64,000 bases of DNA from a virus (taxonomy: Duplodnaviria; Caudoviricetes). Made by a program: the position numbers and the translations under genes. This document shows, piece after piece, positions 14,699-28,913 of the stretch. Below the pieces are notes generated by a model that saw only the letters and a list, made by a program, of their open reading frames with translations, searched no databases and was not told the origin of the DNA. Positions within the stretch are counted from its first letter, which is position 1, and each line of letters begins with the position of its first letter. Where the stretch lies: the IMG/VR virus record IMGVR_UViG_3300017909_001085, positions 32,001-96,000 of that record; one strand, written 5' to 3'.

Positions 14699-14700
14699 GA

Positions 14701-15249
14701 CTACTCCATAAATTCGTCTAACGCACCTCTGCGTTCTTTCTTTTCTTTCTGTATTTCTTTTATTTCTTCAACTTGCTTATCATCATACATGTTATCTTGT
14801 AGAAACTCTAGATACTGATTTGTATACTGACCATCATCATGGTCGTCAGTAAACAGACTTTCATCAACAACCATATTCTGAATAATCTTTTGCTTCAGTT
14901 CTGTTTGTTTCTTTTCTTTTTGTATTCTTCGTAGAAATGCATAGTAAATAATCTGTGTAAAATAAGCGAACGGATTCTTCGATTTCTCAGGATTAAAATT
15001 GTGTAAATACATTAAACAATTTTCGATACCATCAGATATCATATCATGTTTATATGTATAATTAATAAAGTTTGGTCGATATGATAAATGCTGTGCAATC
15101 TTCAAAAAACATTCGCCAATATATCTAGTTACTGGTGGTGTTTCTTTACCTGCTGATTTTGCCTCATCAACTTTTGCTCTATATTCGATTAGTGCTTCTA
15201 AGAACTCTTTGTTGTTGACATAGTGTTCTCGCTTCTTCTTTTCTGCCAT
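14701..15249 (-). CDS. g55: Late transcription sigma factor gp55
   Basis: HYVNNKEF, YRPNFINYTY, DGIENC, NPFAYFTQI, AFLRRIQKEKKQ. Confidence 0.97.
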   Translation of the reverse strand: MAEKKKREHYVNNKEFLEALIEYRAKVDEAKSAGKETPPVTRYIGECFLKIAQHLSYRPNFINYTYKHDMISDGIENCLMYLHNFNPEKSKNPFAYFTQIIYYAFLRRIQKEKKQTELKQKIIQNMVVDESLFTDDHDDGQYTNQYLEFLQDNMYDDKQVEEIKEIQKEKKERRGALDEFME

Positions 15250-15268
15250 AATATCTCCATAATAACTA

Positions 15269-15297
15269 TTGACAACACCTACTTAGGTGCATATAAT
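15269..15297 (+). promoter_or_regulatory. Perfect-consensus sigma70 promoter, antisense to the surrounding genes
   Basis: TTGACA-17 nt-TATAAT. The spacer holds the palindrome CACCTA-CT-TAGGTG. Confidence 0.65.
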
Positions 15298-15322
15298 AGG
15301 GGTGTTCCCCTTTCAGAATAAC

Positions 15323-15796
15323 TTAATGTTTTGTTATCTTGTGCTTGTTGTACATATATTCCTCAACTTGACTTGTTTCATCTAGACTATCATCTAGACC
15401 TAACCTCTCGTTAAGGTCATCAACAACGTCTTTCAACTTTCTCAATCTTCTTGCTTTCATTTCATAATCATCTTCAGGTTCATCCATTCTTTCAACAGGT
15501 GTTGATTTCAATCTTTCTATGATAGTATGATAGTAATTTATAACATCATCTCTAGGCATTGTCACGGTAATAATGTTACTCTTTGCAACATGAAATATTT
15601 GATTTTCTGAGAATGATTCCCAAGGTCCGAATGTTGCATTTTCAAATGCACCCTCACCATTATCTGATGGTGACATCCACTTATGAATTCTCACAGGTTC
15701 TATAATTGTAGCATAGTTCTTTTCTTCATCTACTCGTAATTTACATACGAGACTTTCACCATTTGTTAATTTTATGAGTTTAATTGGTGTTGTCAT
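15323..15796 (-). CDS. Conserved T4-like hypothetical protein between uvsW and g55 (Sm-like N-terminus)
   Basis: IKLIKLTNGESLVC...PW...; synteny with marine T4-like phages. Confidence 0.75.
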   Translation of the reverse strand: MTTPIKLIKLTNGESLVCKLRVDEEKNYATIIEPVRIHKWMSPSDNGEGAFENATFGPWESFSENQIFHVAKSNIITVTMPRDDVINYYHTIIERLKSTPVERMDEPEDDYEMKARRLRKLKDVVDDLNERLGLDDSLDETSQVEEYMYNKHKITKH

Positions 15797-17244
15797 ATCT
15801 TTACCTGTATAGTTTTATATTTGAACTTCTCTTCATTATATATCTTTATTCTTTCAACGGCATGTTCTAATGTGTAGTTTCTGTGATGTTTCCAACTCAA
15901 GTCATCTGATATATCAAATAAAGTTGCTTCATTTTTATTTTCACCTAACCTAAGACCACGTCCAATAGACTGTAGATTTCTGATTTTTGACTTACTAGGG
16001 GAAGCAAAAATGATATTATGCAAATTACGAATATTAATACCAGTAGAAAAAGTCCCGTAACTTGCAACGATAATAGCATCAGTTTCTTTCTCGGTAATAG
16101 CACGAATTTCTTCTCTATCATTTGCTGAGACACCTCCGTATACAAAGAATACTTTTCTATCAAGAGATTTGTCTTTGATGAGGTCATACAACACTTTACC
16201 ATGCTTCTCTACATACTGAAATAACAATAGAGAGTTACCTGATTGGTCTAATGCTAAGTTCTTAATAAAATTATTTCTTGGTGCGTATGATACTAAAAAG
16301 TCCATTTCTTCTTGATATGAAAACTTCTTACAATCTTTCTTCACTTCTTCTGAATAATTCAACATTAAGCACTTAATATTTAGTTTAGCAAGTTGACCAT
16401 CTTTCATCAATTGCTTCGATGTCGTAAATCTACGAACAGGTCCAAACAAACCCTCTAGCATCAACTTATGAGTTTTTGTACCGTCAAGAGTACCAGTTGT
16501 ACCGAAACGCATGACAGCATTCTCTGTTTTCTCCATAAGTGTTTTTAGACTTGTTGCTTTGAATAGATGTGCTTCATCACCAATTACCATTTTATACTCT
16601 GCGAACCACTTCTTTGGCAATTTATATACTGATTGCCATGTAGTGATTACAATTCTTTTGTCGGTTTCTTTGTCATGACCAGAATAAATTCTATGACAGT
16701 TTGCTTCTACGTCATACCCATAATCTGCAAAGTCTTTGTACATCTGTTCTACAAGAGATGTTGTAGGCACAATAATCAATACACGACCTGATGTACCTAA
16801 CTGTGTAAGACCATAGATGATGAGTGATTTACCAGAACCAGTAGGAGAAAGCATAGTCAATCTTTTATCATTGATACCATCACGAATAGCATCTACTTGA
16901 TAGTTTCTGGGATTGAAAGGTAGTTTCAAATCAACTAATGCTTTTACTACATCTTCTGTTGAAATGTTCTGCTTCGGTATGACACTATCTTGACCTACAA
17001 GATGATATTCTCTCTGCTTACAGAACTCTTCTAAGTGTGTCATCAACCCGATATAGAGTTGACTTGTCCACATATTGAACAAGCGTATCTTACCATCCCA
17101 CTGTCTAGTTCTAAAAGATGGCATGAACTCTGCGCCAGGAACTTTGAATGTAAAGTAGTCTGACAACTCGTATTTAATACCAGCGTCATCACAATCTACA
17201 GTCATGAACACTTCGTTAATTTTTGTGACGATTATTGTATTCAT
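15793..17244 (-). CDS. uvsW: UvsW DNA helicase
   Basis: PRNYQ, SPTGSGKS, DEAH, GTTGT, STGINI, QSIGRGLR. Confidence 0.97.
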   Translation of the reverse strand: MNTIIVTKINEVFMTVDCDDAGIKYELSDYFTFKVPGAEFMPSFRTRQWDGKIRLFNMWTSQLYIGLMTHLEEFCKQREYHLVGQDSVIPKQNISTEDVVKALVDLKLPFNPRNYQVDAIRDGINDKRLTMLSPTGSGKSLIIYGLTQLGTSGRVLIIVPTTSLVEQMYKDFADYGYDVEANCHRIYSGHDKETDKRIVITTWQSVYKLPKKWFAEYKMVIGDEAHLFKATSLKTLMEKTENAVMRFGTTGTLDGTKTHKLMLEGLFGPVRRFTTSKQLMKDGQLAKLNIKCLMLNYSEEVKKDCKKFSYQEEMDFLVSYAPRNNFIKNLALDQSGNSLLLFQYVEKHGKVLYDLIKDKSLDRKVFFVYGGVSANDREEIRAITEKETDAIIVASYGTFSTGINIRNLHNIIFASPSKSKIRNLQSIGRGLRLGENKNEATLFDISDDLSWKHHRNYTLEHAVERIKIYNEEKFKYKTIQVKI

Positions 17245-17374
17245 CTGTTATATCAACAAAACTTTGATATGTAGCACCACAATTGATACATACATAATCT
17301 TCAGTCAAAGGTCCTTCTTCACTCTCAAAATAATATTCGCCACATACTGAGCATTGATAAATTCTAGGTATCAT
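17216..17374 (-). CDS. Rubredoxin-like small protein, 52 aa (two CxxCG knuckles)
   Basis: Manual translation MIPRIYQCSVCGEYYFESEEGPLTEDYVCINCGATYQSFVDITDEYNNRHKN. TAATG coupling to the uvsY stop; fills the uvsY-uvsW gap. Confidence 0.75.
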   Translation of the reverse strand: MIPRIYQCSVCGEYYFESEEGPLTEDYVCINCGATYQSFVDITDEYNNRHKN

Positions 17375-17817
17375 TACATTACTCCGTTTGTAAACTTATG
17401 CCATTCAATAGCATGTTTGATGTCAAACCCTCTACTACTAATGCTACGCAATATTCTTTCTAGCGTATCTACTATAGTCTCCCAATATGCAATTCTATCT
17501 TTCTTCTTAATTAAATCAAAGTCGCCATCTAGTTGCTCATCCATTTCATTCTTGAGAGGTTTCGCACCTAGATATTGTTCCCATCCTAAATCATCTAATT
17601 CTTTTTGAGACAACTCACCACGATAATATCTCCACTTATATCTACGCAATTTGTAATAGTCGCTACGCTCTTTTTGTAGATTGAGTTTAGATGTGGATAA
17701 GATTGTCAGATACTTTGCATGAAGATTTGGCACATTCAATGCTTCTTTGTCGAGATTGATATCATCAATCTTAGCATCTTCTTGCCACATTGTTTGTATC
17801 TTATCTAAATCTACCAT
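17374..17817 (-). CDS. uvsY: UvsY recombination mediator
   Basis: W..DAKID, LHAKY, YYRGE, RGFDIKHAIEW. Start moved to ATG 17817 because of the GGAG RBS and the promoter position. Confidence 0.92.
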   Translation of the reverse strand: MVDLDKIQTMWQEDAKIDDINLDKEALNVPNLHAKYLTILSTSKLNLQKERSDYYKLRRYKWRYYRGELSQKELDDLGWEQYLGAKPLKNEMDEQLDGDFDLIKKKDRIAYWETIVDTLERILRSISSRGFDIKHAIEWHKFTNGVM

Positions 17818-17870: not shown

Positions 17871-18452
17871 TTAAATTTTGACTATTTCGTAGTGAGAGTA
17901 GGCAAATGATGCCGATGCGGTAAGATATGGCATTGTAGTATCAGTAATGTCAAACTGAATTGCTTCTAGTGAAGTAGGAAATAAGTCCTTAAATCTTACT
18001 TCTATATTGACTTTGTTGTTACTATCTGTAATACTCATTGTTGCATCTGTCATGGTAGGTGCGATAGGTTTTAGTGTTGCACTTCTTGCTGTTGGAAATT
18101 CTGCTTGTCTATTAATATAAGCATTATAATCGTCTGTGTCAAGGTCTGCAGTGATTTGTACCATCCAATCTTGCAATGCTTTGAAGTTTATCATGTTCTC
18201 ATCAATCAAGAATGTTATTAGCATATCACCAAATACCAGTGTATCACCAGGCAAAGGTGTATCTTTCATTCTGGTCGCCTGCAAAGATGATGACATAGAA
18301 ATGTTAGGTATGTTAGCAGTTTGACATGTGAATGCAACACCTTCTAGTCTTTGCATCGTGAATACGAATTGAGAGGGTGTCAAAAAGTTCAAATTAGATG
18401 CCGCTACACTATCGGTCCAATTTGTAATAGTTACGTTTGTATCATACGCCAT
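17871..18452 (-). CDS. g3: Tail completion / sheath stabiliser gp3
   Basis: NFLTPSQF, FTCQTANIP, PGD, FLIDE, FKDLFPTSL; position after g23. Confidence 0.9.
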   Translation of the reverse strand: MAYDTNVTITNWTDSVAASNLNFLTPSQFVFTMQRLEGVAFTCQTANIPNISMSSSLQATRMKDTPLPGDTLVFGDMLITFLIDENMINFKALQDWMVQITADLDTDDYNAYINRQAEFPTARSATLKPIAPTMTDATMSITDSNNKVNIEVRFKDLFPTSLEAIQFDITDTTMPYLTASASFAYSHYEIVKI

Positions 18453-18546: not shown

Positions 18547-19827
18547 TTACATCAAGTTAGTTACTGTTACCAATCTGTAGTAAGAGTTGCTATCTGCAGA
18601 GATAGAAGTGAATGGGTTTGACACTAGACCATATCTAGTCTTGAATCCAATCTTAGGTTGGAAAGTGTTCTCTCCCACTGCACGAACCATTTGCAGAGGC
18701 ACATATGGACAATAGAACAGACCAGCGTCATATGCGTTAGCGCCTTTGTAACCAACACAATAGAACTGATTGCTGTCACTGTCGTTTGCTGAGTATGGGT
18801 CAACGTACACTTTAATCTTACCGTTGATAGTACCAGCAAATGTGTTACCAGTATCATCTACGTTCAGATTAGTCTGAAGTGCAGGAGCGTAATCAAGTAC
18901 GCCTGCCATAGACAGTGCAGATGCTACATCACTTGAAGTGATGATGAAGTTACCCTTACCTCTACGAGTGTCTTGTGCGATAGTGTTCGCATCTCTTTCG
19001 ATTTGGAACAAGAGACCCTTAAATCTCTCTACGCTCCAACGACCGTTGGAATCAACGTCAAGGTCAAAAGTACCTGCACTTGCTACTGCACCAGACTGTG
19101 CGCCTGCTTTAGCAGAAGTGTATACAGTACGAACTACTTCACGGTTGATTTCAGCAAGAATTTCTGCTGAAAGGATGTTTGCGAGTTCAGTTTCAGCATC
19201 AAGACCATGAACTGCTTTCAAGTCTTGTGCAAGTTCAAGAGTGTATTCTGCTTTCAACGCTCTTGTCTTTGCTGTTACTGAAGTCTTTTCGATGGTGAAT
19301 GCCATCTCGTTGAACTGACCTGAGTTACCCATTGAGACTGCACCATCTCCAAGTGCTTCACCAGTACCGGTTCCAGCACCAGCGCCAGTTGCGTATGGTG
19401 ATTCCACTGGGTTACCGCCAGCATGTGCTGGGTTAACACCAGAGAAGTCTGTGTCTGCTTCGTTGTACAATGCTTCTGTACCACCCTGTGAAGAGTAGTT
19501 AGACTTCATTGCGAAAATCAGACCAGTTGGACCAGTCATTGGTTGCACACCACAGATGTCATATGCAATCAGATTTGGCATTGCTCTACGAACAAGCGAA
19601 ATCAGGATTGGGTCAAATTTTGCGATACCGCCTGTATCAGGCATTGTATCTGAATGGTTAGTCGGGATTGCTTCGTTAAGCATTCCACGCTCTTCACGCA
19701 TTGCTTTTTCTTGGTTCTCAAGAATTACAGTGGTGACTGCCTTCTTATAACTATCGCCGATTTGTGGTAAATCAGGATGGTCGAGGACAGGACCCCACTT
19801 TGATTGAAGGTTTTCTGTTAAAAACAT
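18547..19827 (-). CDS. g23: Major capsid protein gp23
   Basis: LISLVRRAMPNLIAYDICGVQPMTGPTGLIFAM, RALKAEYTLELAQDLKAVHGLDAE, FQPKIGFKTRYG. Confidence 0.99.
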   Translation of the reverse strand: MFLTENLQSKWGPVLDHPDLPQIGDSYKKAVTTVILENQEKAMREERGMLNEAIPTNHSDTMPDTGGIAKFDPILISLVRRAMPNLIAYDICGVQPMTGPTGLIFAMKSNYSSQGGTEALYNEADTDFSGVNPAHAGGNPVESPYATGAGAGTGTGEALGDGAVSMGNSGQFNEMAFTIEKTSVTAKTRALKAEYTLELAQDLKAVHGLDAETELANILSAEILAEINREVVRTVYTSAKAGAQSGAVASAGTFDLDVDSNGRWSVERFKGLLFQIERDANTIAQDTRRGKGNFIITSSDVASALSMAGVLDYAPALQTNLNVDDTGNTFAGTINGKIKVYVDPYSANDSDSNQFYCVGYKGANAYDAGLFYCPYVPLQMVRAVGENTFQPKIGFKTRYGLVSNPFTSISADSNSYYRLVTVTNLM

Positions 19828-19870: not shown

Positions 19871-21151
19871 TTATTTGCCTAGTGTTCTGGAGATTGCAGA
19901 AACGTAGTCTTTCATCTCACCGGTTAGATTGACAGTTTCAGTTTGTTCTTCAACAGCAACCTCGTCCTCTTCGATAGGTTTGGCGACCTTTGGAAAGTAA
20001 CTCTCTTTGAGTGTTTCCAATTCTTGAGCGAAAGAATCCTCATCTTTGAATTCTACGCTTTCTACTAGTGACATGAACTTCTCTTTCTGAGTATCGGTCA
20101 AGTCTTTAGCAGATTCCTCAATTTTAATTGCTTTCTTTGCTTCGTTTACCAACTTAGCAGTTTCAGCATTCTTTTCGATTTGCTCATTGAGTTTCTCATT
20201 GAGTTCATCAATCTTTGACTGTTGTTCTGCCATCACATCATACTTGTCTTCTGGAACATCAATGTAATGCTCTTCAAATACTTTCTTCAGTGATACAATA
20301 AAGTCTTCTGTGATTTCAGACTTCAGACCACGCTCAACAGCGAGTTCGTTGTCTTGTGACCACTGCTCAACAACATATGAAAGATATGTGTCAACTTTAT
20401 CAGTCAAATCTTCAGCAATCTTAGAAGTTTCTTCTTCGATTTGTGTTTCGTAATGCTCTTCAAGTTCAACAATCTTTTCAGCAACTTTAGAGTTTACTGC
20501 CGCTTCAAATACAGTCTTTGCTTTTGCTTTGAATTCGTCATCAAACTCACCGCCTTCAGTCAGTGCATTTACATCATCTGACATATCGACTTCTTCATTT
20601 GCTTCTTTCTTTCCATGATAAGATGACTTCATATAACCGTAAGATGCTTTCATGTGCTTCATTTCTTTCATCTTATCGACCATGGCATGGAGTTTTTCTT
20701 TCATCTTCTCCATTTCTTCCATTTCTTTGTCATCATCGTCATCGTCATCGCCGTCATCGTCAGATGCTTCTTTTTCGTCATCTTCTTCTTTAGCGACAGT
20801 TTTCTTTGCTTCAACGATTTCGTCTTCTGATGCTTCTTCTTCAGCGACTACTTCTAAGTCTTCGTCTGTTTCGTCTTCTTCTTTAACTGGTGTAGCACCT
20901 GGTTTGATTTTTTGTTCGCCTTTGTTTGCTTCACCACCTGGTACTGCCGCTTTCTTGACTTTCTTAGTCATTTCAGCAGGACCATTCTTATCGTCTGGTG
21001 ATACAACAGCGGCACCAGCATCTTCAACGCCATCAGCATCGGCATCGATTTTTTTCATTGGTTCAGCGGCAACACCTTTACCACCAGGAGCAGTTGCTTC
21101 TTGCATAGATGCTTCAAGCAATTCTTTGATTTTGTCTTCTACATTTGACAT
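19871..21151 (-). CDS. g22: Prohead core scaffold protein gp22
   Basis: Acidic coiled coil; FKAKAKTVFEAAV, VDTYLSYVVEQW, FEEHYIDVPE, LKESYF. Confidence 0.95.
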   Translation of the reverse strand: MSNVEDKIKELLEASMQEATAPGGKGVAAEPMKKIDADADGVEDAGAAVVSPDDKNGPAEMTKKVKKAAVPGGEANKGEQKIKPGATPVKEEDETDEDLEVVAEEEASEDEIVEAKKTVAKEEDDEKEASDDDGDDDDDDDKEMEEMEKMKEKLHAMVDKMKEMKHMKASYGYMKSSYHGKKEANEEVDMSDDVNALTEGGEFDDEFKAKAKTVFEAAVNSKVAEKIVELEEHYETQIEEETSKIAEDLTDKVDTYLSYVVEQWSQDNELAVERGLKSEITEDFIVSLKKVFEEHYIDVPEDKYDVMAEQQSKIDELNEKLNEQIEKNAETAKLVNEAKKAIKIEESAKDLTDTQKEKFMSLVESVEFKDEDSFAQELETLKESYFPKVAKPIEEDEVAVEEQTETVNLTGEMKDYVSAISRTLGK

Positions 21152-21190: not shown

Positions 21191-21838
21191 TTATAGTTTT
21201 GACAAGAAATCGTTAAATGCGTTTAACTTTGCTTCTTGTAAAGAATTAAGTTTTGCTTTAGCAATATCTTGCTTATATCTTTCGATATTCACTTCTTTGA
21301 TGATGCCATTATCCCACACCCACTCTGCACCTTCCATGATGCCGTTTACAAAAGCATCTGGAGCAGACGGGTCTGCAACAATGTCGGCGGCGGTTGCAAG
21401 ATAGAAATCACCTTGCACTTCTTGGGCACCGTTACGTCCCTGTTTCAGAGACCCCATACCTCTAGAAGATACCCCCAATGTAGCGCCTTCATCCATCAAA
21501 TTCTTAACAATCTTACCATATGGAGTATCCATAATCTTTGCTTTGCCCATGACATTAGAACCATCCATTTTAAGTTCTGTAATCATGTGCGATACTCTTT
21601 CAAGATTGATTGTCGGACCATCAGGATGACCCAACTCACCAAACGCACGTTTGCGGTCGATATTATCTTTTGTATATCTCTTGACTTCTTTTTGCATAAC
21701 GTCAGATGGATATACTCGACCGTTTCTATTCTTGAGGTCGGACTGCATGAATACGCCCTCAATGAAATAATTTGACTTGCCATTCTTCTCTTCTACGAGA
21801 AAGTTAGCATCTTGAATTTCTTCTCTAATAAGTTTCAT
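21191..21838 (-). CDS. g21: Prohead protease gp21
   Basis: NRNGRVYP, GELGHP, VSH, GVSSRGMGS, DIVADPSAPDA. Confidence 0.98.
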   Translation of the reverse strand: MKLIREEIQDANFLVEEKNGKSNYFIEGVFMQSDLKNRNGRVYPSDVMQKEVKRYTKDNIDRKRAFGELGHPDGPTINLERVSHMITELKMDGSNVMGKAKIMDTPYGKIVKNLMDEGATLGVSSRGMGSLKQGRNGAQEVQGDFYLATAADIVADPSAPDAFVNGIMEGAEWVWDNGIIKEVNIERYKQDIAKAKLNSLQEAKLNAFNDFLSKL

Positions 21839-21840
21839 GA

Positions 21841-22197
21841 TTAGATACCTGCATAACCTGTTAGTTTTTTAAGTACTAGAACTGCAGTTCCGCCTGTTGT
21901 AATAGTTACTTTGATATCTTCGTCACTATCTGTGACCTCTAGTGCAGGTAGAATCCAATGACCAGAGGTTTCAACCGCCCCACTATCAAATTTGACTGTA
22001 CCAGTTGTAGCACTTTCAATTACTACATCTCCTGACCAGTAGATTTCTTTGATACCTACAGTAGGTGATGAAGCAGTTTGACCGGACACCCGAAAATTTG
22101 CACCATCAATATCAATTGTGGTATTTCCAGCACCGCCAGTCACACTGACTACGTTTGTCGTTTTGGTGACTTTTAGAAATTGTTGACCTATTGCCAT
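21841..22197 (-). CDS. Probable virion structural protein (beta-rich; paralog of 31215..31586)
   Basis: Has its own late promoter; C-terminal LKKLTGY matches LKKVSGF in the paralog. Confidence 0.7.
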   Translation of the reverse strand: MAIGQQFLKVTKTTNVVSVTGGAGNTTIDIDGANFRVSGQTASSPTVGIKEIYWSGDVVIESATTGTVKFDSGAVETSGHWILPALEVTDSDEDIKVTITTGGTAVLVLKKLTGYAGI

Positions 22198-22222: not shown

Positions 22223-22230
22223 TATTTATA
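22223..22230 (-). promoter_or_regulatory. T4-type late promoter
   Basis: Intergenic TATAAATA. Confidence 0.8.
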
Positions 22231-22250: not shown

Positions 22251-24590
22251 TCACTTACTTTTCATAAAATCTTTGAAGTTCATCGATGCTTTTAATACAG
22301 GATTAAAAGGTCGATTAATCTCCATATCTCCAACTTTTTGTGACATAGGTTTTTTCAACTTATGCACAACACCTTTATTTCGTCTTGCCATGTCTTTTGC
22401 ATCATCTGCTTTAGATGCGAACCCTATAATCTTACCTTTAGCATCTACTGCGACATGCGTATACTTGATTGCTTCATCAAGTTCAATTTCTTCTTTCACT
22501 CCTGCTAATTTATATGCCGCATTGGCAAGTTGAGTGACTTTCATTTTTCTCATTCTGTCTTGATTTTGTTTGTTTACTTTCTTAAAAATTTTCATAATTA
22601 ATGATGCAGTAAACATATCAACCATTACACCATCAATCTTCATTGCTTGTTTATCATCAACAACTTTTTGAATTTTATCAATCGTGCCACCAAACGCAGA
22701 ACCACCTACTTCATCTAGTTCAGTTTCTTCTTTTACTAAAAACTTACCCTCAATGGACAAATTATCATTACCACCAAAGTTGACTTTGAAATCTCCATCT
22801 TTATAATCTTTCATAATAGTGCCGACTGTTTTTTCATAATGACGCTGAGAGGGACTTTTCAAAGAACCTTTCTTCACCTTTACTTTGTCACCAACCTTAA
22901 ACTTTTCATCAAGTTGTTTGACTTCAGTTAAGTGATAACCTTTACCTTGGCAATGGTCACAACCTTCGCCTTTACACTGAGGACACTCTACTTTCTTTCC
23001 TACTTCTTCAGGAACTACTCTCAACGCACCCGAAACGTAAGCAGGATGCATCTTCAATGCTCTCTGAGCATCTTTCTCATCGTTACTATCAACGTATACT
23101 TTTATCTTTTTATTTCTACTATCAGCATCTACACGAAATTTGATACGACCCATTTTCTGAGCAATCTCTTTTCCAATACCATCACCCATCATTTTGTCAA
23201 AGACTTTTTGTTTCTTAGGGTCTTTGAAGTTTCCATCTTTATCAAACAGTTTTGCAAGATGTGGTGGTAGTGCTTCTTCTAGTTCAACTTCTTCCATATT
23301 GAGTTCTTTTCTTAACTTTGAGATTTCTCTTGAAAGAGCATCATGTTTTGGTGAACCAGAAGGAATCTTCATTGCTCTTGTGTACATCACCATAAGTGCT
23401 TTTAGTTTGTCAACATCCTTTTTGTCAATATTAAGTTCCTGTGCCATGCTCTTCATCTTACTTTCGTCTAGTTCGACTTCTTCAATCGCATACTTAGACC
23501 AAGAACCCTTAAAGTTTTTCTTCATCCACTTACTTACAATAGGACGGGCATCACCATTTGGATTCTTGTCGCCAGCAACACCTAAATCATCATATAACTC
23601 ATCATCACCGATGAACTCACCAACAACAGATATTGCATCATCTCCGCCTTTACCAAGTTTAATTGGTTTAGACATTGCTTTCTTCAGTCCTTGTTTCTTC
23701 TTTGAGGAATCAGGAAGCGCCCAAGTTCCTTCTTGTAGTTCTTCAAGCATCTCTGCGATATACCCTAATTCATCATTAGACAAAATCTCTTCACCCATAT
23801 TCAACAGACCTGCAACTTGCTTGCCCGGAATATAATCTGGTAGAATTTTTTCTAGTGATTTCTTAGGGTCTTTAGATTTCTGTGCATCTGCTTTGAATTT
23901 CTTTGCAAAAGGTTTCAATGTTCTGTCTTTATTCATAGCAGTTACGATGTCATCAATGTACATAGCAATCTGCTTCATCTTACCTTCTTCGATGCTTTCA
24001 TCAAAGTATTCGTTCTCTTTCAACTTTTGTACTGCTTTGTCAAAATCTCTTTTTGATTTTGCAAGAACTGTCTGTAGTTGTAACTTTGAAGCAGGTTTTA
24101 GTTTGTCGTAGATAGCAAGCAACTTCTCTGCATCTTTGGGATTTATTTTTGCTTTCTTACCATCAGCAAACTCAATAGGTTTCATACCTCTGAGCGATAC
24201 TGCTTTTCTCAATTGCATCATAATATTTTTATCTGCCGCTTTTCTATCGTCATCAGTAGCAAAGTCATCAATATCAGCGGCGTCTTTACCTCTTCTACGA
24301 CCCATTGCTCTCATTGCGTCACGCTTTGCACGATTTTCTTGCAACTCTTCACCCACAAGTTTCAAGTAATCTTTTACGACTTTTTGAGCATCTTTCTCGT
24401 TACGATACGAACCAGCATATTTTTCTCCATCAAAGTATACAAAGAACTTACCACCTTTTGTAGAGATAGTAACTTCTATATTTTTCTTTCGACCGACTTT
24501 ATCGGTCTTGACAATTTTCTCTCCACTGTCTACTTTGACTTTTTCAGCGAGATTTAATGTCTGTGATAGTTGGGTGAATGTGACTGACAT
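22251..24590 (-). CDS. Modular internal head / prohead-core protein (putative polyprotein), 779 aa
   Basis: Occupies the g67/g68 position between g20 and g21. Lys-rich modules are separated by EELQE, ESIEE, EEVELDE, EEVELEE, KQLDE, EETELDE and EEIELDE linkers. Confidence 0.7.
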   Translation of the reverse strand: MSVTFTQLSQTLNLAEKVKVDSGEKIVKTDKVGRKKNIEVTISTKGGKFFVYFDGEKYAGSYRNEKDAQKVVKDYLKLVGEELQENRAKRDAMRAMGRRRGKDAADIDDFATDDDRKAADKNIMMQLRKAVSLRGMKPIEFADGKKAKINPKDAEKLLAIYDKLKPASKLQLQTVLAKSKRDFDKAVQKLKENEYFDESIEEGKMKQIAMYIDDIVTAMNKDRTLKPFAKKFKADAQKSKDPKKSLEKILPDYIPGKQVAGLLNMGEEILSNDELGYIAEMLEELQEGTWALPDSSKKKQGLKKAMSKPIKLGKGGDDAISVVGEFIGDDELYDDLGVAGDKNPNGDARPIVSKWMKKNFKGSWSKYAIEEVELDESKMKSMAQELNIDKKDVDKLKALMVMYTRAMKIPSGSPKHDALSREISKLRKELNMEEVELEEALPPHLAKLFDKDGNFKDPKKQKVFDKMMGDGIGKEIAQKMGRIKFRVDADSRNKKIKVYVDSNDEKDAQRALKMHPAYVSGALRVVPEEVGKKVECPQCKGEGCDHCQGKGYHLTEVKQLDEKFKVGDKVKVKKGSLKSPSQRHYEKTVGTIMKDYKDGDFKVNFGGNDNLSIEGKFLVKEETELDEVGGSAFGGTIDKIQKVVDDKQAMKIDGVMVDMFTASLIMKIFKKVNKQNQDRMRKMKVTQLANAAYKLAGVKEEIELDEAIKYTHVAVDAKGKIIGFASKADDAKDMARRNKGVVHKLKKPMSQKVGDMEINRPFNPVLKASMNFKDFMKSK

Positions 24591-24596
24591 TTTTTT

Positions 24597-24779
24597 CTAC
24601 TGCTCCGCTTTTTCTATTTCTAGTTCACCTTTATCATTAAATAGAGTTTTTGATAGACGCTCTTTTGCTTGTGCAAGTGCATCTGCTACTTTGTCATTCA
24701 TTACTGACTGAAACTTATTTTCAGCATCTACAAAGTTTTTATCGTTAATATCTTTAATCATTGCGTTAATTTTTTTCAT
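24597..24779 (-). CDS. Small prohead core protein (gp67-like)
   Basis: 60 aa, directly after the portal gene; helical A...F...M..KV..AL pattern. Confidence 0.7.
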   Translation of the reverse strand: MKKINAMIKDINDKNFVDAENKFQSVMNDKVADALAQAKERLSKTLFNDKGELEIEKAEQ

Positions 24780-26290
24780 TAGAATCCACCTTCGTCATCT
24801 TCTTGTTCAGGCGCCGCTTCCGCTTCTGCCTCTATTTCACTATTTAGTGCTTCAATTTCATCGTCAGTTTGCTTCAGAATATTCTTACGAATCCATAACT
24901 GACTGTAGTATTGACCAGCATACTCTGCCGCATCTCTTACAAGTGCAAGACGCTCTCTAAGTATCTCTTGGTCTTTCAGTTCTGAGAACTGATTATCTTT
25001 TACATAATCATAACGAATATCTTCTTTCATCAGTTCCCAGTCTTCTTCAGTTATTACGCCTTTCAGCAATAACTGTGTACGCAACAAGTCTTGAAATAAT
25101 TCATTAAACTTCTTACGCAAACGACCTACGAACTTCGTAAATTTCAATTCATCACGATTAATCTCTGTTGCTCGACCTAACTGAAAACCACTTTCAGGTT
25201 GCATACGAGATTGTGGCACATTAAGTGCTAAGAACATCTTCTTCTTAAAGTACTCAATATCTTCAATCTCACCAAGGTTCTGACCACCACCTAATGTAGT
25301 AATCTCTGTACCTCTGCCGCCTTCTCTTCTTGGCATCCAAAAGTCTTCTAGCATGTTCATGAACTTACGGTCATCTTTAACTTCACCAGTATCACCATCA
25401 TACACTAACTTATTCTTAAAGTTATTCATGATATCTTTTAGATACTGTTCTGCTTTCAACTTAGGTAAGTTACCAACATCTACATAAAAAACTCTACGCT
25501 CAGGTGCCCTTGCAATACGATAGATGACTAGTGCATCTTCCATCATACGCAACTGATTGACTGGTTTGATTGCTTTGTGCAAATAACCTACAACCATATT
25601 ATTGTTCAAATCAGTTTGTCCAGATGGTACATAGCAAACACTATCTTTAGTTAGTGCTACTGCAGATGATTGTTTCATCTGTGAGATATTACCCATGACT
25701 TGACCTTCAGTATACAGGAAGTATTCTTTTATTTTTTTAATACCACCGATACCTTTAGATATCTCTTGTTGTTCATCTTTCTGAACTTCACGAACAAATT
25801 TTATTGAGCGTGGGTCAATAATTCTTAATTTTTGTATACCGTCTTTTTGATTTTTGGTATCTACAACTTTATGAAAGTATAGACGACCATCAATATACCA
25901 ACGCTTAAAGAGTTCATGAGAACGCTTGTTAAAGTCAAGCATTCTTAGAACTTCCTTAAACTCTTCATTTATTTTCTTCTTGATTGAACTTGAAACCTGA
26001 ACATCATCTAGAGTTATAGATACTTGTCTATCATCGTCAGACACGATTGCTTCATTGATGATATCATCAATTGCCGCTTCGCATTCTGGATGCATAGAAA
26101 TCTCACGATACTTCTTAATTAAGTCGTATTCGCTTTTTGCTTTATAATCCTGATTGACGAAAGTACCAAATGCGCCACCAGAGACGGTAGCGACACCATC
26201 ATCTGGTGAAGGAAGAATTATATCCTGCTTGCTTAAATTCTTCTCTTCTCCAGCACGACTGATTTCAAATCCGAAAAGTTTTACTGCCAT
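24779..26290 (-). CDS. g20: Portal vertex protein gp20
   Basis: LFGF, WYIDGR, YLHKAIKPVNQLRMMEDALVIYRIARAPERR, EDFWMPRREGGRGTEITTL. Confidence 0.99.
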   Translation of the reverse strand: MAVKLFGFEISRAGEEKNLSKQDIILPSPDDGVATVSGGAFGTFVNQDYKAKSEYDLIKKYREISMHPECEAAIDDIINEAIVSDDDRQVSITLDDVQVSSSIKKKINEEFKEVLRMLDFNKRSHELFKRWYIDGRLYFHKVVDTKNQKDGIQKLRIIDPRSIKFVREVQKDEQQEISKGIGGIKKIKEYFLYTEGQVMGNISQMKQSSAVALTKDSVCYVPSGQTDLNNNMVVGYLHKAIKPVNQLRMMEDALVIYRIARAPERRVFYVDVGNLPKLKAEQYLKDIMNNFKNKLVYDGDTGEVKDDRKFMNMLEDFWMPRREGGRGTEITTLGGGQNLGEIEDIEYFKKKMFLALNVPQSRMQPESGFQLGRATEINRDELKFTKFVGRLRKKFNELFQDLLRTQLLLKGVITEEDWELMKEDIRYDYVKDNQFSELKDQEILRERLALVRDAAEYAGQYYSQLWIRKNILKQTDDEIEALNSEIEAEAEAAPEQEDDEGGF

Positions 26291-26332: not shown

Positions 26333-26902
26333 TTAAGCAGTTGTATCTGCGGTCACATTACCGCCGAAACGACCACCAACACTTTCAAAGAACTGGTAAG
26401 TAAATTCACATGTAAACTCTGCAATTGCATCGTTTGTTCCAAAGTCTAGAGCAATCTCACCAATATTGGTTGGATATGCATCTCTGATTATGTATGACTT
26501 TAGAACATCATCATTTCTGTCAAGATGGTCAACTCTCAAGTCAACGAGATATTCTGCAGGAAACACTCTACCTCTGTTTGTGACTACGTTGTTGATACCA
26601 TTCTGCCAGATTTCTAATGCGTCACGAATTGCAAAAGAAGTGTCATTATAGACAGTTACGGTCCATGGAGTGAAAGTTCTTTCACCGCCAAAGTTTACTA
26701 CACGACCCCTATAGTTGACTGGAGTGTTACCGATTGTTGAACCAGGTAGTGCGGCGCCTCGGCATAGAAACTCACTGTCTCTGCCTGCTACACCTGCTAC
26801 TGCACCTGAGACATACTCAGGAAACGTCAGTGTACACTTAAACTGGTTTGCTCTCGCACCCCCACCAATCATACGGGACTTAAAGTCTGAAATTGTTGCC
26901 AT
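26333..26902 (-). CDS. g19: Tail tube protein gp19
   Basis: GGGARANQF, LPGST, RTFTPWTVTVYND, AYPTNI. Confidence 0.96.
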   Translation of the reverse strand: MATISDFKSRMIGGGARANQFKCTLTFPEYVSGAVAGVAGRDSEFLCRGAALPGSTIGNTPVNYRGRVVNFGGERTFTPWTVTVYNDTSFAIRDALEIWQNGINNVVTNRGRVFPAEYLVDLRVDHLDRNDDVLKSYIIRDAYPTNIGEIALDFGTNDAIAEFTCEFTYQFFESVGGRFGGNVTADTTA

Positions 26903-26934: not shown

Positions 26935-28854
26935 TTATACACCAGTCTCTTCGAAACTGATTCCAGTTCTTGTTGCAACGAATGTTAAAGTGATAAAGTT
27001 GATTGACCTTGCAGGTTTCACAAAGATATCTGCTCTAAATTCATTTGCATCAATTACAGCGGCGGTGTTATTCGTTTCGTCACACACAACTTTGAAATCA
27101 AAGATACCTCTACGACCTTGAATGTCTCTCAAGAAAGGTTCTACAAGATTTCTGAAGTTTGCTCTGGTGAATGTGTCGTTAAATTCAAACAACTGAAACT
27201 TCGCCGCTGTTGCAATTGCTTTCTCAAGAACAATGAACAATCTACGAACATTAATTCTATCGAATGCACTTGGTGCAGTCAGCATAGTTTTATCACCAAA
27301 GAGTGTAATTCCTTGTCCAGGGAATGCTACAACTGGGTTTACTTGACTTCTATAGAGAGTGTCTCTATCTGCTTTGTTCGGTGAGAACGCTACTTTTACT
27401 GCATTCTTAATCTGCCCTCTGTTAAATCCAGCAGGTGAGAAGAATGGATCAGCAACTAAGTCTGTTCTTACACAACATCCAGCAACATCAGCATTGAGTG
27501 GAATCCAACGATATACATCATTGTATCTGTCATACTGATACTTCCAACCACTGTCCATTACTGCAAATGAAGAGTTGATGTTTGCTGAAGCATCTCTAAA
27601 GTCTACAATATCTGTAGCGGCAGTTGTCGCCTGTGCGTCAGCAAGTTCAGGTGACAAGAATACCATACAGTCTTTTCTTATTTCTGCTACGTTATCTACA
27701 ACATACTTAGCAGTTGCTCCATCTGCAGGACCCATAACAATCAGTGAGATATCGTATTTCTCATCATTTGCAAATTCTGCATATGCTGTTTGTCTTTCGC
27801 CTGCTGATACAGCGGCACCATTTGAACCACCTGCTAGTGATACATATTGTGGTTTTCTGCCTGTGTGTGAAAATCCGTTACTTAGAAGACCTGTTGATGA
27901 ATTACCTACATCTGCATCTAAGTCACCATGATGGTCACCCCAATAGATATATGTTGAATACTCGTTAATGTGGTCTTTGTAGAAGTTTATAGTACCATCT
28001 GCTTTTTTCGCATCTGATGCTACTGAAAGATTTGAAAACTTCTCAAGTACTGTGTTTGCTGTACCACTGATATCGCCATCTTCATCGACAACAATAACGT
28101 GAACTTCATCACCTGAACCGCCTCTTGCAGTTGCTTGTGCAGAAGTTCCCGGTGCTGAATCAAATTCAGCATGATAGAACCATTTTACAGTTACATCAAC
28201 TGCTGTGCCACTTCCATCAACTGCAGAGGTTAGACCAGTAGTCTTACCTTTTTCTCTGATAGTTAGTGTGTTTGTTGATATTCCTGTTACTTCGTATTCT
28301 GTTGCATGATTAGCAAATACAATTAAGTCACCAACAGCAATGTTAGTGGCAGCGGTAACTGTAACAGATGTAGCACCTGCAGAGTTATTTGCTGTAGTAT
28401 TAGTTACTGCTGATTGACTGTATGAGTTTGCATTCATACAAAGTGAAATTCTTAATGAATTACCTAATGTACCTGGTGATTTTGCCGCCCAATCGCCAAC
28501 TCCTGCGGCGATTGCACTAGCACCCAATGTGTCATAGTGGTCATCATTTTTAATTTTGAATCCTGAACCGTCTTGTGCCGCATTCAGAAGTCCTGCTTTA
28601 TCTGCTCTAATTACTTGAAGGTTAGAACCATAAGACAAGAAGTTTGCCGCAGAGAAGAAATCTTCATATGTATCAGCATTCGGTTCACCGAAAACGGAAA
28701 CCAATTCATTTTCTGATGATACATTAGTTACTACGTCAACAGGTCCTGTCTGAAAATTACCTGCAAAGGCACCTGGAGAGGTTGCTACTGCTGGCACAAC
28801 CTGTGTCAAGTCCACTTCACGAACTAGAACGCCTGGTGAAATTTGAAATGCCAT
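26935..28854 (-). CDS. g18: Tail sheath protein gp18
   Basis: SPGVLVREVDLT, YQYDRYND, SPAGFNRG, FDRINVRRLF, KPARSINFI. Confidence 0.99.
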   Translation of the reverse strand: MAFQISPGVLVREVDLTQVVPAVATSPGAFAGNFQTGPVDVVTNVSSENELVSVFGEPNADTYEDFFSAANFLSYGSNLQVIRADKAGLLNAAQDGSGFKIKNDDHYDTLGASAIAAGVGDWAAKSPGTLGNSLRISLCMNANSYSQSAVTNTTANNSAGATSVTVTAATNIAVGDLIVFANHATEYEVTGISTNTLTIREKGKTTGLTSAVDGSGTAVDVTVKWFYHAEFDSAPGTSAQATARGGSGDEVHVIVVDEDGDISGTANTVLEKFSNLSVASDAKKADGTINFYKDHINEYSTYIYWGDHHGDLDADVGNSSTGLLSNGFSHTGRKPQYVSLAGGSNGAAVSAGERQTAYAEFANDEKYDISLIVMGPADGATAKYVVDNVAEIRKDCMVFLSPELADAQATTAATDIVDFRDASANINSSFAVMDSGWKYQYDRYNDVYRWIPLNADVAGCCVRTDLVADPFFSPAGFNRGQIKNAVKVAFSPNKADRDTLYRSQVNPVVAFPGQGITLFGDKTMLTAPSAFDRINVRRLFIVLEKAIATAAKFQLFEFNDTFTRANFRNLVEPFLRDIQGRRGIFDFKVVCDETNNTAAVIDANEFRADIFVKPARSINFITLTFVATRTGISFEETGV

Positions 28855-28905: not shown

Positions 28906-28913
28906 TATTTATA
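28906..28913 (-). promoter_or_regulatory. T4-type late promoter (g18)
   Basis: Intergenic TATAAATA. Confidence 0.85.

What the first reader, a model, noticed from the sequence alone, without database searches (positions are those of the whole stretch)
22251..24590. Head-region polyprotein: about 10 unrelated basic modules joined by prohead-protease-type linkers
Seen in sequence: the 779-aa protein splits into Lys-rich modules of roughly 30-120 aa. These are bounded by acidic linkers: NLAE, EELQE, ESIEE, EELQE, EEVELDE (23463-23483), EEVELEE (23274-23294), KQLDE, EETELDE (22710-22730) and EEIELDE (22473-22493). Modules include a DnaJ-style zinc finger (CPQCKGEGCDHCQGKG), a KOW/SH3-like unit (KFKVGDKVKVKKG) and two loosely similar helical units (IEFADGKKAKINPKDAEKLLAIYDKL and MKIDGVMVDMFTASLIMKIFKKV). 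Established: T4 gp21 cleaves after (L/I)-x-E, the g20-g21 interval encodes prohead-core proteins, and T4 internal proteins such as IPI* are injected anti-defence factors. Inference: one gene is packaged into the prohead and cut into many small DNA-binding or effector proteins delivered at infection. The similar linker DNA could also let modules be swapped by recombination.
Basis: partly seen in the sequence, partly recalled or inferred. Interest (0 to 1): 0.8.

Follow-up and report, generated by a model that had tools for sequence, protein, structure and literature searches.

The report
Shufflable polyprotein of phage head cargo
A marine T4-like phage carries, between its portal and head-protease genes, one 779-residue gene made of about ten small, mostly basic protein units joined by a conserved linker shaped like the protease's cutting site; related phages swap these units freely, so it is probably a cut-apart train of proteins packed in the head, though packing and cutting have not been observed.

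Summary
ORF 22251-24590 (minus strand, 779 aa) lies between a gp67-like gene and a 118-aa gene next to the gp21 protease, in an uncultured marine T4-like phage.

It has 14 [LI]-x-E sites against 6.7 expected, and four EE-x-E-L-x-E linkers against 0.00 expected. AlphaFold gives beads on a string (pTM 0.26). Twelve of the 14 sites fall in low-confidence inter-bead segments.

The family is large: 1,752 clusters at 50% identity. Among 119 relatives I counted 39 module arrangements, 21 of them out of order. The linker consensus is [IVM]-K-E-E-V-E-L-D-E. All four indel junctions against the nearest relative sit at linkers. One module with both its linkers is 97% identical in a genome otherwise 84% identical.

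The 16-residue leader ends in an invariant L-x-E. Sister proteins at a second locus start with a leader matching the T4 capsid-targeting sequence. Their cyanophage relatives are annotated as virion proteins from mass spectrometry.

Best reading (about 0.55): a packaged polyprotein cut by gp21 into internal-protein-like modules. Module exchange is shown. Packaging and cleavage are inferred. Module functions remain unknown. I rate it a new variant of a known kind. Two first-reader notes in this scan cover the same stretch.

The parts
24543..24590 (-). Leader, aa 1-16 (MSVTFTQLSQTLNLAE), a candidate capsid-targeting propeptide ending in L-A-E
   Evidence: In 34 unique leaders of this type, L14 and E16 are invariant and position 15 takes 6 different residues. 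pLDDT is below 50.
24336..24542 (-). Module M2, aa 17-85, beta sheet plus helix, pI 9.3, ends EELQE
   Evidence: Confident bead in the model. Found in 62 of 119 relatives. pI.
23985..24335 (-). Module M3, aa 86-202, helical with a hairpin, pI 9.6, ends ESIEE (also LKE at 190-192)
   Evidence: The commonest module, in 107 of 119 relatives. Also present in cytidylyltransferase fusion proteins of other contigs and in Melnitz gene 20.
23730..23984 (-). Module M4, aa 203-287, helical, ends EELQE
   Evidence: The DNA breakpoint against L005 is at aa 284.
23463..23729 (-). Module M5, aa 288-376, helical, ends EEVELDE
   Evidence: Absent from the nearest relative L005. Placed after other modules in P0019, P0069 and P0070.
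23274..23462 (-). Module M6, aa 377-439, helical, ends EEVELEE
   Evidence: Absent from L005. In P0009 it lies after M7, 93% identical.
22986..23273 (-). Module M7, aa 440-535, alpha/beta, pI 9.7, ends in PEEV..., a remnant of the PEEVELDE linker seen in relatives
   Evidence: HSPs end at aa 528-530 in many relatives whose own sequence continues PEEVELDE.
22905..22985 (-). Zinc-finger unit, aa 536-562, CxxCxGxG twice, ends KQLDE
   Evidence: Motif read from the sequence. Pfam Anti-TRAP E=0.0024, below cut-off. tblastn hits in S-CAM9 gp096 and CRP-9. Low pLDDT.
22710..22904 (-). Module M8, aa 563-627, SH3-like (sub-threshold), ends EETELDE
   Evidence: Pfam SH3_15 E=1.9e-4, 22.1 bits vs cut-off 24. 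Absent from L005.
22473..22709 (-). Module M9, aa 628-706, helix-hairpin-three helices, pLDDT about 92, ends EEIELDE
   Evidence: With both flanking linkers it is 97.3% identical in L006, whose background identity is 84%.
22251..22472 (-). Module M10, aa 707-779, beta-beta-alpha-beta, pI 10.2, followed by the stop codon
   Evidence: Present in 49 of 119 relatives, at varied positions.
21191..21838 (-). gp21-type prohead serine protease, the proposed processing enzyme
   Evidence: Pfam Peptidase_S77 4.9e-38; phrog_207 7e-83.
24597..24779 (-). 60-aa gp67-like prohead core gene immediately upstream; its stop lies 6 nt before the polyprotein's ATG
   Evidence: phrog_1064 'prohead' E=0.003. Same position as T4 gene 67. 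Junction read.
21841..22197 (-). 118-aa beta-rich gene between the polyprotein and gp21, conserved in relatives
   Evidence: 94-100% identical in L004-L011. S-SCSM1 genes in this slot are annotated 'virion protein'; the positional equivalence is my inference.
19672..19680 (-). L50-N51-E52 of the major capsid protein, aligned with the T4 gp23 maturation site
   Evidence: In alignment A2, T4 L63 and E65 are invariant columns and the next residue is Ala.
28906..28913 (-). TATAAATA, a T4-type late-promoter motif ahead of sheath-tube-portal-gp67like-polyprotein; the next one is at 22223-22230, after the polyprotein
   Evidence: 15 sites in the window vs 5.5 expected, 14 of them on the minus strand.

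Best explanation
The gene encodes a late-expressed polyprotein of internal-head-protein-like cargo. (1) A 16-residue N-terminal leader takes the whole chain into the scaffolding core of the prohead, as the capsid-targeting sequence does for T4 internal proteins. (2) The gp21-type protease encoded two genes downstream removes the leader after L-A-E and cuts the chain after the Glu of each L/I-x-E linker. This would release about ten folded pieces of 3-13 kDa, most of them Lys-rich and basic. (3) These pieces stay with the packaged DNA and enter the host with it. (4) Each unit is flanked by the same about 8-residue (about 21-nt) linker, so units can be added, lost, reordered and exchanged between phages and between loci without needing a promoter, ribosome site or targeting signal of their own. 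Step 4 is shown here. Steps 1-3 are inferred. What the individual modules do is unknown.
For: Context:
- Order is portal, gp67-like, this gene, 118-aa gene, Peptidase_S77 protease, scaffold, capsid protein, matching T4 20-67-68-21-22-23.
- The gene is in the late unit behind TATAAATA at 28906-28913, and its ATG lies 6 nt after the gp67-like stop.

Protease specificity: the T4 gp23 site (L63, E65, then Ala) is conserved here as L-N-E then Ala. The T4 motif L/I-X-E is from PMC9026906; Alt sites ITE-6 and LTE-619 are from PMC5694885.

Sites:
- 14 [LI]xE vs 6.7 expected; EExE[LI]xE 4 vs 0.00.
- In 120 relatives, 1011 vs 583 +/- 22.
- Linker logo from 120 unique sites: P3 Leu 110/120; P2 is mostly Asp (90/120) with five alternatives; P1' varies among A/G/V/K/S/R. 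P1, P4 and P6 Glu were fixed by the search pattern, so their invariance is not evidence.
- The same peptide KEEVELDE occurs in cyanophage S-SCSM1 ORF92 with a TTA Leu codon instead of CTN, so selection acts on the peptide.

Leader: L14 and E16 are invariant in 34 unique leaders, while position 15 takes 6 residues.

Structure: pTM 0.26 with separate confident beads. 12 of 14 sites lie in segments with pLDDT below 50 (P=4e-5) and the other two are within 3 residues of one.

Pieces: most have pI 8-10 and 7-13 kDa, like T4 internal proteins.

Sister proteins with leader M-[ST]-x-Y-x-x-x-M-x-E-A match T4 MKTYQEFIAE at Y4, hydrophobic 8 and E10. T4 residues 4 and 7 target, 8 and 10 process (PMC9026906). 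These proteins share modules and linkers with this family (PMC8442874).

Virion presence of relatives: S-SCSM1 ORF91 (homologous to this genome's cytidylyltransferase fusion, E=2e-41) and ORF92 (homologous to S-CAM9 gp096, E=1e-12) are annotated 'virion protein'. The paper reports the virion proteome (PMC9602691), and PMC10665884 notes frequent detection of cytidyltransferases in cyanophage virions.

Exchange:
- 39 arrangements in 119 relatives, 21 out of order.
- All four junctions vs L005 fall at aa 284, 439, 562 and 699, i.e. at linkers. L006 carries aa 620-707 at 97.3% against an 84% background.
- Similarity breakpoints lie within 4 aa of an [LI]xE in 49% of cases vs 12% at random.
Against: - No virion proteomics or cleavage data exist for this phage or for any protein with this leader.
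- The leader differs from the T4 CTS: aromatic at position 5 rather than 4, and 16 residues rather than 10.
- No module matches a known internal protein, DNA-binding family or effector family.
- The linker is conserved over 8-9 residues, more than the T4 L/I-x-E motif needs. It may therefore serve another purpose, or owe part of its conservation to common descent: the Leu codon is CTN in 15 of 15 unique linker DNAs vs 51% background, and one 21-mer makes up 13 of 37.
- Three pieces (203-287, 288-376, 536-562) are not basic.
- Acid-rich, low-confidence linkers would collect [LI]xE partly through composition alone.
- No clean free-standing single-module genes were found; the short hits look like frameshift fragments.
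- The virion evidence is for distant relatives and comes from GenBank notes and paper text, not peptide data (one search found nothing in the supplement).
Confidence: 0.55

Rival explanations
1. An uncleaved, flexible beads-on-a-string protein. It is packaged in the head (or binds DNA in the cell) as one 88-kDa chain. The acidic linkers are spacers that offset the basic modules and happen to serve as recombination junctions, but are not cut.
For: The linker is conserved well beyond L-x-E and has a strong DNA-level signature, so its conservation may have causes other than protease recognition. No cleavage data exist. S-SCSM1 ORF92 is annotated only as a virion protein, with no statement on processing.
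Against: P3 Leu is present in 110 of 120 unique linker sites (P1 Glu was fixed by the search pattern). The leader shows the same L-x-E pattern with a freely varying middle residue. In T4, L/I-x-E in exposed segments of core-associated proteins is sufficient for cutting (PMC9026906), and this phage keeps the T4 gp23 site. An exposed chain with 14 such sites would be hard to protect inside a prohead with active protease.
Confidence: 0.2
2. An expendable prohead core or scaffold accessory, like T4 gp67/gp68/gp22. It helps build or size the core, is chopped by gp21, and the fragments leave the head, so nothing is delivered to the host.
For: It occupies the gene-67/68 slot between portal and protease. 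T4 core proteins are cut at many L/I-x-E sites (PMC9026906, PMC5694885).
Against: - It is hypervariable in module content between genomes whose flanking head genes are 96-100% identical, which is unexpected for an assembly factor.
- It is basic, whereas the scaffold and the gp67-like protein are acidic (pI 4.3 and 5.3).
- Cuts are predicted only between folded domains, not within them.
- Modules are shared with proteins of a different locus.
Confidence: 0.12
3. A late cytoplasmic multi-domain protein that is not packaged. The N-terminal resemblance to targeting leaders and the position among head genes would then be incidental.
For: There is no direct evidence of packaging. No family assignment exists for any module.
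Against: It is translationally adjacent to prohead core genes in a late unit. The leader is conserved with a protease-type end. Relatives that share modules or linkers are annotated as virion proteins.
Confidence: 0.08
4. An artefact: several small genes fused by assembly or sequencing error, or by a mis-set reading frame.
For: Related phages have 3-5 small genes in this interval. Many short database hits are fragments.
Against: The frame is open for 779 codons. The identical protein is on record (P0007). Hundreds of independent contigs carry long open frames with the same linkers. The fragments are the error products, not the long forms.
Confidence: 0.02

Closest known systems
T4 internal proteins IPI, IPII, IPIII (and Alt): CTS-targeted, gp21-processed head cargo injected with the DNA
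   Same: Small, basic, Lys-rich products. An N-terminal propeptide ending in L/I-x-E. A gp21-family protease encoded nearby. High diversity between related phages while the targeting leader stays conserved (PMC9026906, PMC3012670). The sister proteins' leader matches MKTYQEFIAE at Y4, hydrophobic 8 and E10.
   Different: In T4 each internal protein is a separate gene with its own leader and is cut once. Here about ten units share one leader and one reading frame and would need about ten cuts. There is no sequence or fold similarity to the T4 proteins. This gene sits inside the head-gene cluster. Nothing here has been shown experimentally.
Polyvalent proteins of phages and conjugative elements (Iyer, Burroughs, Anand, de Souza, Aravind 2017, PMC5512222)
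   Same: Many (2-15) unrelated domains in one polypeptide. Variable architectures. A proposed role as cargo delivered with the DNA and processed into separate units.
   Different: Polyvalent proteins are defined by recognisable enzymatic and anti-restriction domains and usually carry their own MPTase-type peptidase. Here no module has a known family, there is no peptidase domain, and processing would be done in trans by the prohead protease at a repeated, conserved linker.
T4 prohead core proteins gp67, gp68 and gp22
   Same: Position between genes 20 and 21. Multiple L/I-x-E sites.
   Different: Those proteins are acidic or conserved assembly factors whose fragments are largely expelled. This protein is basic, built from folded modules and hypervariable. 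No homology was detected.
Processed head and inner-body proteins of giant phages (phiKZ, 201phi2-1, SPN3US)
   Same: Many head-internal proteins are cut after Glu at a short motif by a gp21-related protease, some at several sites, and paralogous ejection proteins share leaders (PMC5694885, PMC9026906).
   Different: In those phages cleavage removes propeptides from separate proteins. A multi-module chain cut into independent domains has not been described there, and the motif is S/A-x-E.

Membership tests
T4-type internal head proteins (CTS-targeted, gp21-processed) | N-terminal propeptide ending in L/I-x-E | tested here: met
   aa 14-16 are L-A-E. L and E are invariant in 34 unique leaders while the middle residue varies.
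T4-type internal head proteins (CTS-targeted, gp21-processed) | Leader resembles the T4 CTS MKTYQEFIAE (aromatic at 4, hydrophobic at 7-8, Glu at 10) | tested here: inconclusive
   This gene's leader has Phe5, Leu8 and L14-x-E16, so the likeness is only loose. Sister proteins sharing its modules have M-x-x-Y-x-x-x-M-x-E-A, a close match (PMC8442874; PMC9026906).
T4-type internal head proteins (CTS-targeted, gp21-processed) | Cognate gp21-family protease with L/I-x-E specificity in the same genome | tested here: met
   Peptidase_S77 at 21191-21838. The gp23 maturation site is conserved as L-N-E then Ala. The specificity itself is inferred, not measured.
T4-type internal head proteins (CTS-targeted, gp21-processed) | Present in the virion and cleaved during head maturation | not testable with these tools
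   Support is only indirect: S-SCSM1 ORF91 and ORF92, relatives of the sister proteins, are annotated 'virion protein' (PMC9602691).
T4-type internal head proteins (CTS-targeted, gp21-processed) | Small basic mature products | tested here: met
   8 of 11 predicted pieces have pI 8.0-10.2, and seven of those eight are 7-13 kDa. Three pieces and the leader are acidic.
Polyvalent proteins (PMC5512222) | Several unrelated domains in one phage polypeptide with variable architecture | tested here: met
   About 10 beads in the model and 39 arrangements among 119 relatives.
Polyvalent proteins (PMC5512222) | Contains the characteristic enzymatic or anti-restriction domains and usually an MPTase-type peptidase | tested here: not met
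   No Pfam or PHROG family for the whole protein or any module. Relatives show only DUF5824 and CTP_transf_like.
T4 gp68 / gp67 prohead core proteins | Sequence homology to the gp67 or gp68 families | tested here: not met
   No PHROG or Pfam hit for the 779-aa protein. The separate 60-aa upstream gene takes the gp67-like hit.
DnaJ / Anti-TRAP type zinc finger (aa 536-562 only) | Two CxxCxGxG motifs and a family-level profile match | tested here: inconclusive
   Both motifs are present. Pfam Anti-TRAP scores 18.3 bits against a cut-off of 32. The model is low-confidence there.
SH3-like fold (aa 563-627 only) | Profile or fold match to an SH3 family | tested here: inconclusive
   SH3_15 scores 22.1 bits against a cut-off of 24. 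One short relative carries precomputed PF18346. The model is low-confidence.

The most novel reading that the evidence does not exclude
Marine T4-like phages run a protein-level cassette system for injected cargo. One targeting leader pulls a train of independent effector or DNA-coating modules into the prohead. A single conserved linker serves both as the protease cut site that frees each module and as the recombination junction that lets modules be gained, lost, reordered and traded between phages and between two or three loci. The result would be a rapidly reshuffled arsenal, possibly of counter-defence factors, in some of the ocean's most abundant viruses.
Probability: 0.35. Interest if true: 0.85.

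Novelty: new variant of a known kind. Interest (0 to 1): 0.74.

Why it matters
T4 internal proteins are the textbook case of proteins injected with phage DNA, and one of them is a proven anti-restriction factor. Outside the coliphages, however, their equivalents are almost unknown.

This family would extend the idea to the T4-like phages of marine bacteria, with cultured carriers among cyanobacterial and OM43 phages. It also suggests a different way of organising the cargo: many units on one chain, one address label, one repeated cut site.

The family is large (1,752 clusters at 50% identity) and changes between otherwise nearly identical genomes. That pattern is expected of genes in an arms race.

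The idea is directly testable, because sister proteins occur in cultured phages (Melnitz, S-CAM9, S-SCSM1), one of which already has virion mass-spectrometry data. The linker and leader could also be useful for loading foreign proteins into phage heads.

Tried and rejected
- Pfam and PHROG scans of the whole protein and of nine separate modules gave nothing above threshold.
- Foldseek of the whole model against PDB found nothing at E<=0.001. Against BFVD it returned only uncharacterised phage proteins.
- VIA-align wide search with the aa 529-779 model gave a best Z of 3.9, so no fold assignment.
- A second AlphaFold job did not improve the zinc-finger/SH3-like stretch.
- The ESM Atlas gave no usable feature hit, and all structure rows that span the protein had TM below 0.25.
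- The search for shorter proteins, meant to find free-standing modules, returned mostly frameshift fragments of long genes.
- The small g20-g21 genes of Mosig, Melnitz and HTVC008M were compared with 344 family members: no hits, so I cannot claim the polyprotein grew from them.
- BLASTP of modules M3 and M9 against each other was not significant.
- This protein has no paralogous module elsewhere in its own genome.
- Complex prediction of gp21 with a 45-residue linker segment gave 'no answer' (score 0.02). This is no evidence either way.
- The supplement of PMC9602691 held no searchable accession for ORF91 or ORF92.
- A literature search for the linker string and for 'polyprotein' with 'prohead protease' found no description of this family.
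Full report
WHAT IS THERE

The window comes from a 125,860-bp, 37% G+C contig of an uncultured marine T4-like myophage. Its nearest cultured relatives are Pelagibacter phages Mosig and HTVC008M and Methylophilales phage Melnitz, at about 70% DNA identity over the head genes.

On the minus strand the gene order is:
- sheath, 26935-28854;
- tube, 26333-26902;
- portal, 24779-26290 (Portal_T4, 1e-178);
- a 60-aa gp67-like gene, 24597-24779;
- the 779-aa ORF, 22251-24590;
- a 118-aa gene, 21841-22197;
- the gp21 protease, 21191-21838 (Peptidase_S77, 5e-38);
- scaffold, 19871-21151;
- major capsid protein, 18547-19827.

T4 itself reads 20-67-68-21-22-23. Cultured relatives carry 3-5 small genes of 60-130 aa in the portal-protease gap. 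The long ORF starts 6 nt after the stop of the gp67-like gene. It lies in the late unit behind a TATAAATA motif at 28906-28913, and the next such motif, at 22223-22230, follows it.

Against 5000 shuffles, [LI]xE occurs 14 times vs 6.7 expected, E[LI]xE 6 times vs 0.49, and EExE[LI]xE 4 times vs 0.00.

AlphaFold2, run with 66 aligned relatives, gives pTM 0.26. That means no global fold, but a series of separate confident beads at aa 20-80, 113-192, 198-252, 296-360, 376-430, 443-528, 636-696 and 710-765. Twelve of the 14 [LI]xE sites fall in the segments with pLDDT below 50, which make up 31% of the chain (binomial P=4e-5). The other two lie within 3 residues of such a segment. The sites are therefore between the domains and largely absent from their cores.

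Cutting at the sites would give a 16-residue leader and ten pieces of 3-13 kDa. Eight of the pieces have pI 8.0-10.2.

A LARGE, MOSAIC FAMILY

A word-indexed search found 497 relatives of 428-1364 aa. Many are 90-98% identical over only 10-40% of the query. An exhaustive HMMER search of 1.84 billion representatives found 1,752 clusters at E<=1e-3 and 639 at E<=1e-10, typically with 2-7 separate matched stretches.

I mapped this protein's modules onto 119 relatives. That gave 39 different arrangements, 21 of which (50 proteins) are not colinear with the query. For example, P0009 has M6 after M7 at 93% identity, and P0069 and P0070 hold the same three modules in different orders.

The linker is conserved across all of this variation. 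From 120 unique sites the consensus is [I/V/M]-K-E-E-V-E-L-D-E, followed by A/G/V/K/S/R. P3 is Leu in 110 of 120 sites. P2 is mostly Asp (90 of 120), with five alternatives. The P1, P4 and P6 Glu were fixed by the search pattern, so their invariance adds nothing. Across the 120 relatives [LI]xE occurs 1011 times vs 583 +/- 22 in shuffles. Internal breakpoints of alignments at 70% identity or more lie within 4 residues of an [LI]xE in 49% of cases, against 12% for random positions. The sequences are related to each other, so this is a descriptive contrast rather than a strict test.

EXCHANGE IS RECENT AND BOUNDED BY LINKERS

Eight IMG/VR loci (L004-L011) belong to the same phage lineage and keep the gene in the same slot. 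Their version is 490-599 aa long.

L005 is 97.7% identical in DNA from the sheath gene to codon 284 of the ORF. The window then has two extra blocks, aa 285-438 and aa 563-698. A middle block (aa 439-562) is only 85% identical. From aa 699 onward identity returns to 95.9%. All four junctions coincide with linkers, which end at aa 287, 439, 562 and 706.

L006 is about 84-86% identical across the region, yet it carries aa 620-707 (module M9 plus both flanking linkers) at 97.3%.

At the DNA level one 21-mer, GAAGAAGTTGAACTTGATGAA, accounts for 13 of 37 linkers. The Leu codon is CTN in 15 of 15 unique linker DNAs, against 51% in the rest of these genes. The linkers therefore share descent, or are homogenised, and they offer microhomology for recombination. 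Synonymous variants do exist. The same peptide KEEVELDE also occurs in cyanophage S-SCSM1 with a TTA Leu codon, so the peptide itself is also under selection.

WHY I READ THE LINKERS AS PROTEASE SITES AND THE PROTEIN AS HEAD CARGO

(a) T4 gp21 cuts after Glu in L/I-X-E (PMC9026906; Alt ITE-6 and LTE-619, PMC5694885). The T4 gp23 maturation site aligns with L-N-E then Ala in this phage and its relatives, with the Leu and Glu columns invariant.

(b) The leader MSVTFTQLxQTIDL-x-E then KVKV has L14 and E16 invariant in 34 unique variants. Position 15 is A, S, Y, Q, F or T. That is the signature of an L-x-E requirement.

(c) A second set of family members carries the leader M-[ST]-x-Y-x-x-x-M-x-E-A-L-x-E (61 unique variants).
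- It matches the T4 capsid-targeting sequence MKTYQEFIAE (PMC8442874) at Tyr4, hydrophobic 8 and Glu10, followed by Ala. In T4, residues 4 and 7 target and residues 8 and 10 direct processing (PMC9026906).
- These proteins sit at another locus, next to a cytidylyltransferase-fusion gene.
- They share modules with the portal-side proteins. P0140, for example, has this leader plus aa 425-530 at 79% and aa 285-384 at 60%.
- Neighbouring genes at that locus start MKTFKQFIEA, MLTFKEFLLE, MKKFSEIIEA and MKSFLQFLKEA.

(d) This genome's own second locus lies outside the window, at genome coordinates 14251-17610.
- A 177-aa protein starts MTHYRKTMAQVLAE, and its aa 96-175 is a module found in family members at 72-82% identity.
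- An 859-aa cytidylyltransferase fusion starts MTLKFTDLQQRLKEA. Its aa 453-503, which follow F-E-I-D-E, form the C-terminal module of many portal-side relatives at 64% identity.

(e) In Synechococcus phage S-SCSM1 the equivalent cluster, ORF89-93, is annotated 'virion protein'.
- The paper reports a mass-spectrometric virion proteome that includes the NMNAT-like ORF91 (PMC9602691).
- ORF91 is homologous to this genome's 859-aa protein (E=2e-41).
- ORF92 is homologous to S-CAM9 gp096 (E=1e-12) and contains KEEVELDE.
- S-CAM9 gp096 shares the zinc-finger unit with the query.
- PMC10665884 notes frequent detection of cytidyltransferases in cyanophage virions.

LIMITS

Packaging and cleavage have not been observed for this protein or for any relative with its leader.

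The linker is longer and better conserved than the T4 motif requires. A hydrophobic residue at P9 with Glu at P7 could be a second, tandem site that would excise EVELDE, but that is speculation.

No module has a known family or fold. Pfam and PHROG gave nothing. Foldseek against PDB and BFVD was uninformative. VIA-align gave a best Z of 3.9, and the Atlas gave nothing usable. The zinc-finger and SH3-like assignments are sub-threshold and poorly modelled. 'DNA-binding' rests only on Lys-rich composition, read in the light of the T4 finding that Lys residues of internal proteins contact DNA (PMC3012670).

I found no clean stand-alone modules and no homology to the small genes that fill this slot in cultured relatives. 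The complex prediction returned no verdict.

COMPARISON AND NOVELTY

It works most like the T4 internal proteins: a leader, a trans-acting gp21, small basic products and hypervariability behind a conserved leader. It differs in stringing about ten units on one chain with a repeated cut site.

It resembles the 'polyvalent proteins' of Iyer et al. (PMC5512222) in concept. It lacks their defining domains and their built-in peptidase, so I do not file it there.

Literature searches for the linker string, and for polyproteins processed by prohead proteases, found no description of it. The pelagimyophage survey does not mention this locus (PMC7029224).

I rate it a new variant of a known kind:
- confidence that module shuffling at linkers is real: about 0.95;
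- confidence that the protein is packaged: about 0.7;
- confidence that it is both packaged and cut into modules by gp21: about 0.55.

Noticed in passing
own genome outside the window: genome 15031-17610 (-) and 14251-14784 (-); the window is genome 32001-96000: An 859-aa cytidylyltransferase fusion protein has a CTS-like leader (MTLKFTDLQQRLKEA) and C-terminal add-on modules. Beside it is a 177-aa protein with the T4-CTS-like leader MTHYRKTMAQVLAE. Both share modules with the polyprotein family.
   Followed up: partly
L018:1265-3808 (IMG/VR contig): An 847-aa cytidyltransferase protein whose C-terminal half matches four separate small PHROG families (phrog_16028, 7595, 4590, 28338; profiles of 50-100 positions). 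Small stand-alone phage proteins seem to be strung onto a larger one here too.
   Followed up: no
L041:1181-3331 (Synechococcus phage S-CAM9 gp096): This 716-aa mosaic protein uses a different repeated acidic linker, YEPEGEMVE followed by Ala or Gly (twice, plus the variant YEPEGDQIDE), and also WDE. Its leader ends KIAE then Ala. One of its modules occurs in 274 cyanophage records, sometimes inside the gene annotated as cytidyltransferase.
   Followed up: partly
window 17871-18452 (-): A second tail-tube-like gene (phrog_45, 7e-34) lies directly after the major capsid gene. It is conserved in relatives, where it is annotated variously as tail tube or tail completion protein.
   Followed up: no
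window 19871-21151 (-): The scaffold protein is 426 aa, much longer than T4 gp22. It has a highly acidic N-terminal extension that includes a run of Asp, and the T4_CASP domain covers only aa 190-419.
   Followed up: no
window, 15 sites (e.g. 19856, 21179, 22223, 28906): TATAAATA occurs 15 times vs 5.5 expected, 14 times on the minus strand, mostly just upstream of structural genes. This fits T4-type late promoters.
   Followed up: partly
L002:5407-5655 and L003:6017-6265 (Melnitz, HTVC008M): The 82-aa basic protein in the slot occupied here by the polyprotein begins VSKTLSQFKQELPE or MITLSNLRKLTTE, loosely like the polyprotein leader. No homology to any module was detectable.
   Followed up: yes
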